Below are positions 19,435-62,929 of a DNA stretch of 64,000 nt, piece after piece. A model generated the notes under the pieces. It did no database searches. It saw nothing but the letters and a program-made list of their open reading frames with translations, and was not told the origin of the DNA. The stretch covers positions 51,398,001 to 51,462,000 of the forward strand of contig OZ024747.1 of assembly GCA_964016885.1 (NCBI GenBank), written 5' to 3'. This DNA is from Eledone cirrhosa (lineage: Eukaryota). The position numbers and the translations under genes are program-made. Each line of letters starts with the position of its first letter. The stretch's first letter is position 1.

Positions 19435-22032
19435 TAATATAGGTTAATTTTATAAATAAATATTGACATACCCTTAAAAAATGCAACCATTCTGGTTGGA
19501 ATCTCCTGGATAGTGGATTTATTAGATTTATTGTTGGTTTAACATGCAAATTAGCGTTGGAAAGGTTTAAAAACAGTATATTTAAATTAAGCCGTTGGAA
19601 TATGGAAAAAAGAGAAAAGAAAGAGAAAAAAACGAAAAAAAGAAAGAGAGAAACCTGAGTATATTTTAGTGAGAGAGAATAGCGTAATTTTGAGAGAAGA
19701 GGCGAAGAAATAAATATAGCGTGGATGAATACCGTAAGATGGATAAATAATAATAATAACCAATAACAGATACTAATAAAGATGGATAAACAATAATAAA
19801 GCTAACTTGAAGAGTTTATCTAATGTTTAATTAATAAATATAATTAAATGTTTAATTAATAATTTATCAATTCAATCCGTAGTTTAAATGTTTAAATGTG
19901 TATGTTATATTATTAAAGTTGAGACCTATATATTATTATTAAAGAATATATATTATTAAAAAATTTGTAAGTTTACAATATCAGAATATTTCTAAGCTCA
20001 TGGAATTTCCGAGAGTTTACCGAAGAATAATCCCTTATTTGTAATAGCAGTAGAGCGTAAAGGAAATTGCTCGCGATTTATTAATAATTTAGATAGCTCT
20101 AAGGATTAAATGTCATAAAGTTAAATGTTATAAAGTTAAGATGTTAAAAAAATTTAATTATCCATCTTAATAGTGTAATTAGAGTATGAATTTTATGTTA
20201 TTTTATAGCAAGTTATAAATTCATAACTCCAACCTGTTATACAGTTATGACTGTTAAAAACATAAATTTGTTTGCTATAACGTGTTAACATTTAAAAATT
20301 CATTCATTGGAATATATCCAAAGCATAAACCATAAAAAATCTTTCATAAGTGTACATCTGTAGAATATATTTAAAGTATAAATTTCATATATATATCAAC
20401 ATTTTGACATACACATACATACACATACACACGCACACACATATATATATATATATATATATACATCAAGCATTTTAAAAATATATAAATACAAAATATA
20501 CAATATAAAATATGAAATATGAATTATTATTTAAATTATGAATTATGAATTTTTTGTACCCATCATAGGAATTTTCAGAAAAACCTTTCTTCATATCTTT
20601 CAGTACATTTATATATATTTATTCGATTTGTTATATATATATATATATATATATATATATATATATATATATATATATACAAATATATATATATCCGTAT
20701 GTGAAAAGAGTACTCAACACAGAAGTAGAGTTTAAAGAACTATAGCAACAACAAGAACAAGAACTGCGCGAGGGAGACAATAACAACTCAGAATGAATAT
20801 TTTCTACTTGGATTCAGTTAAAAATGTAATATGGACAGTGCATGTGTGTGTGTGTGTGTGTGTGTGTGTGCGTGTGCGTGTGCGTGTGTGTGTGTGTGTG
20901 TGTGTGTGTGTGATAGTGAAGTTAACTAATATCATGTTGTCAGTGAAATATGTTTCTATATATATGTATATATTCAAATTATAAACATATGTGTTCATGG
21001 GTGTGTTGTCTATATATAAATGTATACACTCACTCACACAAATACACACATTCGTTTCAAGATTGTATAATGAATTTGTGAAATATATATATATATATGT
21101 GTGAGTGTGATTGTGAAGTATGTGTGCGCGTGAGTGCCTTCTATTAAAGGACAGTCATGCCTGCTGTTGCTGTGAAATATTTATGTACTATTTGTAAATC
21201 GTTATTTATGTGAAACTATCAACCTATAGAACCATCTTGAATATATCCTAACAGCAACGAAGAAGATAAATTTGTTGCTAAGTGAAAAAAAATTCAGACG
21301 TATGACATGTTGGCTTCGTTTTGGTACAGTCAACATCAACCACTTCTTTTACATGAAATATCATTCCAAATCTGGTAACGTTTCTCTGTAAAATTTTGAA
21401 ATTAATGTTGAAATATTGCACATGAGAGGTGAAAGCCTTTACGATATTTTTTGTTTATGAGAAACATTAAAAGGATTTAGTAAACAATGAAGGAAATATA
21501 TGGGGATATCTATTTGAAATGTATAGAAGGACGAGGAAGACTCAATCTTGCCAGGACTTGTTTTCTCATGTTAGCATGTGTCCGTACAGAAGAAAAACAA
21601 AGGCACTCTCGGGGCATATATATATGAGAACAGATATACATTGTCATATATATGTCACCAAGAACGTATTTGTATCAATTTATAGTTGTATGTCAATATC
21701 CATCCGTCTATCTATCTATCTATCTATCTATCTATCTATCTATCTATCTATCTATCTATCTATCTATCTATCTATCTATCTATCTATCTATCTATCTATC
21801 TATCTATCTATCTATCTCTCTCTCTGCCTGACACGTGGAACACCGCTGGTAAGATTTTTTGTAAATTTATAAACGAAAAACAGAACAAATTGTTTGAAAA
21901 AACATATAATTTTGTAGATTAACCACCAAGCTGAATTGTCAGCTGAGTGGTAATCCCATTGTTCGCCCCTTTAGGGGAGAACATTTAATTTAAAAATTGT
22001 TTTAAAATATCAAATTTTGCCAACTATAAGAC

Positions 22033-23953
22033 ATGAATAACACGAAGGGAACGCTGGAGAACGTCGACAGAGAAAAGAGAGAGAAAGAGGCAGATTTTAA
22101 CGTTATATCTGCTTCTGCTACTATGGACGTCGCCATAGATACGACTGTCAACAAAGGGAAAAAAATATTGCCACTTGAAGATTGTACAATTTCTACCGTC
22201 GAAGCAGAAAAAAAAAAGGAAAACACAGGAATTAAACCCATTAACATACATACACATGAAAAAAACATCAATAACTCCACAGATACATCTACACATAAAG
22301 TTTCACCTCATCAAGGAACTGAGATTTCCAACACCGAGGCTAACAACGATAACAACAACAGCACCCCCCCCCCCCAAAAAAAAAAATGTCATTCGCTGAA
22401 TCAGTGAACAAAAAACAAGATTTTATTTAATAAATCTTGACATCTCCAATGCAAGAGATATGCTCCAGCAAGGGAGAAAATGTGTAACTTTCGAAGAAAA
22501 GGGTGGGTTTAGAATTAACTTACCCCTTGAAATAAAAGAAGACACAGTTCGAAGATCAGTGATCTTTAGGACTGTGTCCAATACCACGAGAAAGCCGATA
22601 ATTGTTAGCCAAGGAGATATAGAAAATACCTTGAAAGAAATTCTAGCAAATATCGAATTTCTCCAACGAGGAAAACAGTACGGAAGTGTTTCCATACTGT
22701 TTAAAAGCGAGGCACTCGCCCCAAAACATTCTGTGACACCAATAGTATCAAAAGCATTCACCTTTTTCCCTACATACATGGGGAAAAGGACACAAAAAAT
22801 AAAAATAAAAAATATACCACAAAACATTAACATCTGGTGGATCTTGGCTGGCTTCGTAAAGCCAGAAAATGATATGATTCTTTCGATACGAAATTATATT
22901 CGACAAAGGTGGGTGGGTACTGATTTGGATATTCTATTGCAAATGAGGCCGGAGAGAATCTCCAAAATACCCGAAAGAGTCGTCATCGATGATAACAACA
23001 AAATAAACATTTCGGTAGAAGGATGAAAATGTCATTGCTTTCGCTGTGGTAGCACAGCACACCTAAAAGCCTCTTGTCCTTCACAAACACACCACAACAA
23101 CATCATTAAAAAAACACTATTACCAACACCAACACCAAAACAACCACCACCACAACAAGTACAACAGACGAAACGAGCAACCACACTAAAAACAAACAGC
23201 CACACAACCAACAACAACAGGAAAAACAGAGACAACACTCCTGAAGAACACAGCTCCATCCCATCCCACTCCATCAAACACTACCACAAACACACACACC
23301 GAAACACCACCACCACACAACATACCACTACCCCACACTCCTGACGATGATTATTCCTCGACGGATGAAGCTGCTTCTCCTTCTTTAAGTGAAGAAGAGG
23401 AAGAGCCGCGGAAATCTAAAAAACAAAAAAAGAGACACCACAAAACCCTCAAAACTCCAATCACCAACACCAACACACAACCACAGACGCAAACAACAAC
23501 GCAAACAACACCACAGTCAAACATCCCCCTACCAGCAAAACCAACAATAACACCACCCAAACACAAGCACCCACCATAAAAAGAAAACACCCGGACGAAC
23601 AACAAACTAAAACAACACAACAAAAACACAAACAACAAAACGCATACATCAACACAAACAACAGGAGTTTGATGGAGGTCATCTCCCAAAACCCCAAGGT
23701 GGAGACGGAGGGCAAAACTTTCGTCAAGGCAGAATCGACTCCACACCTTAAACTTATAAGGGTTTCTATGGAAACCTATAATGACCTAAAAATTAAATTT
23801 TCACAGGACGTGGGCAACCCCTGCCAGAAACCCATCAACTGCGTCCTGTTAAAATGTTTCCCCACCCCACCCAACACCCCATCCAGCACCCAAATGGAGA
23901 TTGAATGCGCCTTTCGTCCTTTTTCTCCAACTCTTCTTCACCAACATGGCTAG
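22033..23953 (+). pseudogene. Disrupted ORF1 of Tx1-like LINE
   Basis: YGSVSILF, FPTYMGKRTQKIKIK, LDILLQMRPERI and CFRCGSTAHLKASC match the intact ORF1; broken by stops and frameshifts. Confidence 0.88.
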
Positions 23954-62577: not shown

Positions 62578-62656
62578 TGAGGATGCCTTGTTATGTAAAC
62601 TCCCCCCATTGTACTTGTCCCACTTGTGATGCCCTGGCGGCAAATATAAAGAAAGT
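62578..62656 (+). mobile_element. Extremely 5'-truncated Tx1-like 3' end with 17-bp target-site duplication
   Basis: Resembles the 3'UTR of the adjacent LINE (TGTAAACTCCCCCC..GCCCTGGCGGC AAATATAAAGAAA). Flanked by TATCTATTACTCTCTCT at 62561-62577 and 62657-62673. Confidence 0.8.
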
Positions 62657-62929
62657 TATCTATTACTCTCTCTCTAACCATTTATCTAGCTATTTGTCCA
62701 ACTAATTACCTACCTACCTACCTACCTATCTATCTATCTATCTATCTATCTATCTATCTATCTATCTATCTTTCTATCTATGTACCTATACCCAGTCGCT
62801 AGCTTACCTCAACAGACTAATGATTCATGATAAGTGTGTTCTATTACCATAGATAAATCAACATATCTGATATGGAAAGTTCATTACCTAAACCAGAAAC
62901 GTCCATCACAGATAAAAACTTCTATCACA

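What the first reader, a model, noticed from the sequence alone, without database searches (positions are those of the whole stretch)
21708..62673. A Tx1-like LINE lineage targeting (TATC)n/(GATA)n microsatellites
Seen: two diverged full-length elements (21825-27608 and 56777-62480) each have (TATC)n at both ends in the same orientation. A third, 79-bp 3' fragment inserted at the end of the same tract with a 17-bp TSD starting TATC. Known: Tx1-clade APE elements include target-specific families (e.g. Kibi and Koshi in TC/TTC repeats, Keno in U2 snRNA). Inference: a tetranucleotide-specific APE endonuclease, which I do not recall being described. Related ends at 38495 and 43865 sit in (TTA), suggesting target switching within the lineage.
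Basis: partly seen in the sequence, partly recalled or inferred. Interest (0 to 1): 0.72.

Follow-up and report, generated by a model that had tools for sequence, protein, structure and literature searches.

The report
Young LINEs that target GATA repeats
These are copies of a young, abundant jumping-gene lineage that sits almost only at TATC (GATA) repeats in one orientation, likely because its own DNA-cutting enzyme nicks that repeat, while close sister families sit in ATT repeats; repeat-seeking relatives are known, so this is a new target for a known strategy.

Summary
Observation confirmed and extended genome-wide. E1 (21825-27610, frameshifted), E2 (56776-62480, both ORFs open) and the 79-bp fragment (17-bp TSD) belong to three subfamilies of an L1-group APE/RT LINE. 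557 of 566 E2 5' ends follow TATC; 82 of 90 sampled 3' ends run into TATC against 2% background. Two sister families sit in (ATT)n; TATC families form one clade (96-100/99); the direction of the switch is unresolved. Full-length copies mostly lack a variant TSD (3 of 26 vs 8 of 20, p=0.038), suggesting the RNA starts inside the repeat. Endonuclease specificity is inferred, not shown; Tx1-clade membership could not be tested against named references. Tetranucleotide targets are already described for crocodilian Tx1 ((TTCC)n, (TTTC)n); I found no TATC report. The scan noted this family before on other pieces of this genome and in another genome. New variant of a known kind.

The parts
21709..21824 (+). 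(TATC)27 plus (TC)4 tract at the 5' side of E1
21825..27610 (+). E1: full-length but frameshifted LINE, TATC-type subfamily 1 (sampled relatives about 86-96% identical)
   Evidence: tblastn tiles over ORF1 and all of ORF2; family flanks
27611..27643 (+). degenerate TATC tract at the 3' side of E1
38079..38481 (+). T38: old 3' fragment of an ATT-type relative, followed by (ATT)5
40561..43868 (-). E3: decayed, 3'-truncated ATT-type copy; 5' end at 43868 behind the ATT tail of a SINE
   Evidence: groups with ATT family A
43869..44057 (-). SINE-like element between two ATT tracts, 3' end resembling the LINE 3' end
56748..56775 (+). (TATC)7 at the 5' side of E2 (target plus, likely, a part carried by the element RNA)
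56776..62480 (+). E2: intact 5705-bp LINE of the youngest TATC subfamily; no poly(A), ends AATAAATAGAAATT
56979..58814 (+). ORF1, 611 aa from ATG, one CCHC knuckle (Pfam hit below cutoff), long Pro/Thr-rich region
58748..62248 (+). ORF2 (stop to stop 1166 aa): APE endonuclease, RT, C-terminal zf-RVT; ATA at the place where sister subfamilies have ATG
62481..62560 (+). TATC tract between E2 and the fragment
62561..62577 (+). left TSD TATCTATTACTCTCTCT
62578..62656 (+). 79-bp 5'-truncated copy of a third TATC subfamily
62657..62673 (+). right TSD, directly after the element's last base

Best explanation
A young clade of L1-group LINEs sits at TATC sites in one orientation, likely because its APE endonuclease nicks the GATA strand at the TATC^TATC step and the freed end primes reverse transcription from the RNA's non-polyadenylated 3' end. 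Shown: occupancy, orientation, TSDs of 11-26 bp starting TATC in truncated copies, tolerance of short or degenerate sites (TACC, TC, TA tracts), stacking of copies in one tract, an intact EN fold, and a sister pair of families in (ATT)n. Inferred: that the endonuclease reads the repeat; that each insertion duplicates the target and so seeds further insertions; that full-length RNA starts inside the upstream repeat, so the cDNA end anneals to target TATC, which would explain uniform 5' junctions, scarce variant TSDs and the high share of full-length copies.
For: 557 of 566 E2 5' ends follow TATC. 3' ends into TATC: 28 of 30, 26 of 30, 28 of 30 in three query sets, background 2%. Of 38 truncated or broken copies 7 were set aside (5' neighbour is element-internal sequence); 28 of the 31 kept have TATC/TACC within 25 nt of the 5' junction, background 14%. 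8 of 20 informative truncated copies duplicate the non-repeat part exactly; 6 of these 8 have TATC and all 8 TC just before the TSD. 34 of 85 E2 copies have a related 3' end within 100 nt upstream. EN residues N31, E60, Y133, D162, N164, D223, D247, H248 present; model pLDDT 94.9, best match human L1-EN variants, TM 0.83-0.85. ATT families: 14 of 15 and 19 of 19 located 3' ends in ATT. TATC rows form one side of a branch at 96/99 and 100/99. L047: 21-bp TSD plus 11 extra repeat bases at the 5' side.
Against: No biochemical test. Fixed ATT-versus-TATC differences are not enriched in EN (12 of 231 columns vs 34 of 896; p=0.72). Loop grafting in L1-EN did not transfer specificity in modular fashion (PMC1950540 passages). 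12 of 20 informative truncated copies show no exact variant TSD, and 3 of 31 have no TATC/TACC at the 5' side. The full-length versus truncated contrast is modest (p=0.038), compares different subfamilies and ages, and two of the three full-length cases are one tandem pair; L329 has a 21-bp TSD and no extra repeat. No empty site and no RNA end was seen.
Confidence: 0.72

Rival explanations
1. The site is chosen mainly by RNA-DNA pairing: read-through RNA ending in (UAUC)n anneals to nicks made by a loosely specific endonuclease in GATA tracts, so the repeat in the RNA, not the protein, sets the target; a target switch would follow from a change of flank.
For: No poly(A) between AATAAA and TATC; EN not enriched in fixed differences; insertion at degenerate sites that keep only TATCT (L103, L115). 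The 5' side already suggests repeat-containing RNA.
Against: Truncated copies show no added repeat between the element end and the TSD (L101, L127, L228, L249); flank type follows the ORF2 tree across subfamilies 65-97% identical to E2 ORF2, although kin share labels; ATT and TATC ENs differ at the hairpin tip. Pairing and protein read-out can act together.
Confidence: 0.2
2. TATC is only an element-made tail or head; insertion is random and the repeats come with the element.
For: Part of the 5' TATC of full-length copies is probably element-borne (L047); every sampled 3' end begins with the repeat, as a tail would.
Against: 5'-truncated copies cannot carry a 5' head, yet 28 of 31 have TATC/TACC there and 8 duplicate TATC plus unique sequence; several 3' flanks hold one unit only (L032, L057).
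Confidence: 0.04
3. Random insertion followed by selective retention in harmless microsatellites, or local duplication or assembly artefacts.
For: Tandem arrays exist.
Against: 98% occupancy, fixed phase and strand in copies 97.5-99.9% identical to E2; tandem neighbours differ by 8-9 substitutions, like unlinked pairs with 6-18; selection would not fix phase or choose one repeat unit.
Confidence: 0.03

Closest known systems
Kibi (TC)n, Koshi (TTC)n and crocodilian Tx1 families on (TTCC)n/(TTTC)n (PMC4494074: passages and section 15 read; figure 3 and supplements not seen; PMC3812793: passages)
   Same: APE-type non-LTR elements inserted in a simple repeat, related families differing in repeat unit, tetranucleotide units included.
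   Different: Unit here is TATC, sisters ATT; not pyrimidine-only repeats. Relationship to these families was not tested: no named reference sequence was obtained.
Dong (TAA)n, Waldo (ACAY)n, Mino (AC)n (PMC3812793, passage)
   Same: Microsatellite targeting; Dong uses the same repeat as the ATT sister families; Waldo is another tetranucleotide case.
   Different: Other clades (R4 and R1, recalled); this ORF2 is closest to L1 among solved structures.
R2 elements whose RNA begins upstream in the target (PMC3774820, abstract and outline only)
   Same: Proposed annealing of cDNA to target sequence gives uniform 5' junctions, as inferred here for full-length copies.
   Different: R2 uses 28S rDNA, a different nuclease and an HDV-like ribozyme; Rfam found nothing at gathering threshold in this window.
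L1-Tx1 families annotated in Octopus vulgaris (PMC13282606: first third of text, term passages, one supplementary table searched)
   Same: 13 recently active L1-Tx1 families with 421 near-full-length insertions are listed; this lineage may be among them if the host is an octopod (host resemblance recalled and taken from earlier notes, not tested).
   Different: The word 'target' does not occur in that text, nor TATC or GATA in the supplement searched.

Membership tests
APE-type non-LTR retrotransposon, L1 group | ORF1 plus ORF2 with N-terminal APE endonuclease and RT, C-terminal Cys/His region | tested here: met
   Pfam Exo_endo_phos, RVT_1, zf-RVT (below cutoff); catalytic residues
APE-type non-LTR retrotransposon, L1 group | ORF2 closer to L1 than to other clades | tested here: met
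   human L1 ORF2p E 7e-49 over residues 26-876 vs R2 E 3e-23; EN fold best matches L1-EN. Only clades with solved structures were compared
APE-type non-LTR retrotransposon, L1 group | 5' truncation, TSDs, no LTRs | tested here: met
Tx1 clade | RT groups with Tx1L, Keno, Kibi, Koshi | not testable with these tools
   two protein searches, one representative search and two cluster look-ups gave no named Tx1 sequence; nearest relatives are unnamed, 38-45% identical, apart from a few partial proteins at 64-68%
Tx1 clade | ORF1 with zinc knuckle (recalled feature) | tested here: inconclusive
   one CCHC, E 0.018, below cutoff
Microsatellite-specific non-LTR elements (Kibi/Koshi type) | one sequence type in more than 20% of flanks (criterion in PMC4494074) | tested here: met
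   557 of 566 at 5' ends; 82 of 90 at 3' ends
Microsatellite-specific non-LTR elements (Kibi/Koshi type) | repeat is target, present before insertion | tested here: met
   truncated copies with TSDs starting TATC; no empty allele seen
Microsatellite-specific non-LTR elements (Kibi/Koshi type) | endonuclease cleaves the target specifically | not testable with these tools
   needs a nicking assay; sequence comparison inconclusive
Kibi or Koshi proper | (TC)n or (TTC)n target | tested here: not met
   target is TATC; a few copies sit at TATC/(TC)n borders

The most novel reading that the evidence does not exclude
A natural switch pair: sister LINEs with about 65% identical ORF2 have retuned one APE endonuclease between (ATT)n and (TATC)n through a few surface residues (hairpin tip NRIGS vs N[R/H]SG[Q/T]; SR vs CQ), and both carry their target repeat at the RNA 5' end so that cDNA-target annealing yields mostly full-length insertions; the ATT partner also drives a very common SINE. 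This would be the first tractable APE-LINE system for both target reprogramming and R2-like 5' joining.
Probability: 0.3. Interest if true: 0.7.

Novelty: new variant of a known kind. Interest (0 to 1): 0.46.

Why it matters
How APE-type LINEs choose microsatellites is poorly understood (PMC3812793, passage), and loop grafts between distant elements gave unclear answers (PMC1950540, passages). Here a family with open ORFs in 19 of 85 sampled copies and close sisters on another repeat make the question testable by domain or residue swaps. It also bears on how GATA and ATT tracts grow and collect stacked elements in this genome.

Tried and rejected
The repeat finder on the whole window was swamped by (TA)n. 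A mismatch-tolerant TSD test scored pure repeats as variant TSDs (7 of 15 in full-length copies) and was dropped for the exact test; only its 5'-flank tally and site contexts are used. The raw count of diagnostic columns looked EN-rich (29 of 231 vs 18 of 360 in RT) but vanished against within-group divergence. No named Tx1 reference was found. Reads: only assembled contigs or reduced-representation runs were offered; contigs of 4 runs laid on E2's first 335 bases and upstream repeat showed the family in three runs of two coded organisms, none in the fourth, no joint, and the repeat itself was skipped: no evidence on splicing, RNA start or empty sites. The idea that E3 and T38 are halves of one inverted element was rejected by order and orientation. 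No intron-less copy among 85. Rfam and ARAGORN found nothing in the window; 13 other ORFs gave no Pfam hit at cutoff. Literature searches without a TATC/GATA-targeting Tx1; Repbase, Dfam, subscription papers (Kojima and Fujiwara 2004) and the figure and supplements of PMC4494074 could not be seen and may list such a family.

Full report
Observation. The window is G000:C7:51398001-51462000 of a 3.0-Gb genome. E2 (56776-62480) has open ORF1 and ORF2 with APE endonuclease, RT and zf-RVT; E1 is frameshifted and 74% identical to E2 in ORF2 DNA. Among solved structures ORF2 is closest to human L1 ORF2p; the EN model (pLDDT 94.9) matches L1-EN best, and the catalytic residues are present. The host looks like an octopod by my recall of its repeats and by earlier notes; I did not test this.

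Genome-wide flanks. A 300-bp 3' query without the repeat gave 2179 candidates; the 40 scored were 100% identical. All 40 were fetched: 40 of 40 are followed by TATC, 38 align to E2 from its first base and all 38 are preceded by TATC; one has an internal deletion and one is joined to a related element. Exact patterns: 557 of 566 5' ends follow TATC; 524 of 720 3' ends read TT+TATC. The remainder in the sample are mostly subfamilies ending TC or CT before TATC: 28 of 30 consecutive ends on C1 have TATC within 4 bases. E1-family and fragment-family ends give 28 of 30 and 26 of 30, each set including the window's own copy; background is 2%. 566 5' ends against 720 3' ends points to an unusually high share of full-length copies, though the two patterns catch somewhat different subfamilies. 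Of 85 E2-family copies with both ends, 85 have TATC 5', 82 have it 3', 19 have both ORFs open, and 34 sit within 100 nt behind another family member.

Target or tail. Full-length flanks cannot settle this, because in L047 a 21-bp TSD is followed by 11 extra repeat bases before the element starts. Truncated copies can. I took 14 of 30 E1-family loci, 17 of 30 fragment-family loci and 7 of 37 E2-pattern loci whose 5' junction lay in view; the others were longer than the locus, full-length, or of a subfamily whose 5' end I did not map. Of these 38, 7 abut element-internal sequence and were set aside; 28 of 31 have TATC or TACC within 25 nt of the junction against 14% background. Where the 3' flank leaves the pure repeat within 14 nt, 8 of 20 duplicate the non-repeat part exactly, with TSDs of 11, 15, 16, 17, 18, 19, 19 and 26 bp, all starting TATC right after the element's last base; 12 do not. 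Six of the 8 have TATC and all have TC before the TSD, giving the site TATC^TATCT; the exact nick is ambiguous by a unit if the RNA ends in UAUC. Some copies sit in TACC, TC or TA tracts or at a lone TATCT, so the requirement is a short motif enriched in the microsatellite.

5' joining. By the same exact test only 3 of 26 informative full-length copies duplicate the variant part (two are one tandem pair; Fisher p=0.038 against truncated copies), although they are younger and better preserved. The simplest reading is that the RNA starts in the upstream repeat and the cDNA end anneals to target TATC, as postulated for R2 elements that cleave upstream in 28S (PMC3774820, abstract). This is inferred and modestly supported.

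Sister families. E3 and T38 lead to two further families, both with (ATT)n at 5' and 3' ends: 14 of 15 and 19 of 19 located 3' ends, with 5 of 20 and 1 of 20 ends not found. Their ORF2 is 59-68% identical to E2's. The TATC rows form one side of a branch (96/99 with all rows; 100/99 without P0001, P0069, P0070 and P0073); the ATT families join at 85/83, so one switch suffices and its direction is unknown. The trees used 7-10 TATC and 8 ATT rows chosen for coverage; near-copies make label clustering trivial. ATT and TATC ENs differ at the tip of the hairpin that aligns with L1 T192-S202 (I215S, S217T/Q) and at S83C, R84Q, but fixed differences are not enriched in EN (p=0.72), and in L1-EN that loop's sequence did not carry specificity in modular fashion (PMC1950540, passages).

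Comparison. Kibi (TC)n, Koshi (TTC)n and crocodilian Tx1 families on (TTCC)n/(TTTC)n are described (PMC4494074); Waldo, Mino and Dong target ACAY, AC and TAA (PMC3812793). A tetranucleotide target is therefore not new. Seven searches showed no TATC/GATA-targeting Tx1; Repbase, Dfam and unseen supplements may hold one. An Octopus vulgaris annotation lists 13 recently active L1-Tx1 families without targets (PMC13282606). The element works like Kibi/Koshi; Tx1-clade membership was not testable for lack of named references. The scan holds 11 earlier notes on this family, on other pieces of this genome and another genome; I read them after forming my reading, and they agree.

Verdict. Real, young, strongly target-biased LINE clade with an ATT-targeting sister; a new target for a known strategy. 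Interest 0.46.

Noticed in passing
window 43869-44057 (-) and 75 further distinct heads in the window and loci: A very common SINE-like element ends GGCCTTGTGCC...AGAAAC(ATT), like the LINE 3' end GCCCTTGTGGCCAATAAA..GAAATC(ATT); 56 of 66 located tails run into ATT, several have TSDs starting ATT, and it stacks with ATT-type LINEs. Likely mobilised by the ATT families.
   Followed up: partly
window 56839-56977 (E2) and 21849-22030 (E1): 5' UTRs carry a GTAAG donor-like site and a pyrimidine-rich AG just before the ORF1 ATG; ATT families have GTAAG or GTGAG at a like place. No intron-less copy among 85.
   Followed up: partly
window 58810-58814: In the youngest subfamily the ORF2 start position reads ATA and overlaps the ORF1 stop (A-TAG) in more than 85 copies, where sister subfamilies have ATG: ORF2 would need non-AUG initiation or a -1 frameshift.
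   Followed up: partly
G000:C2:33300727-33317981; C2:38732764-38750663; C2:17310267-17321713: Head-to-tail stacks of two to three E2 copies, with other subfamilies nested in the same TATC tract.
   Followed up: partly
L090, L111, L228: Copies inserted next to or within related elements at TATC-like words, i.e. self-targeting.
   Followed up: no
window 10600-11576, 16345-17976, 49641-52138: Very long low-complexity arrays (TA-type for the first two) that give spurious long ORFs.
   Followed up: no
window 2316-2539 (-): Weak RT remnant of another LINE.
   Followed up: no
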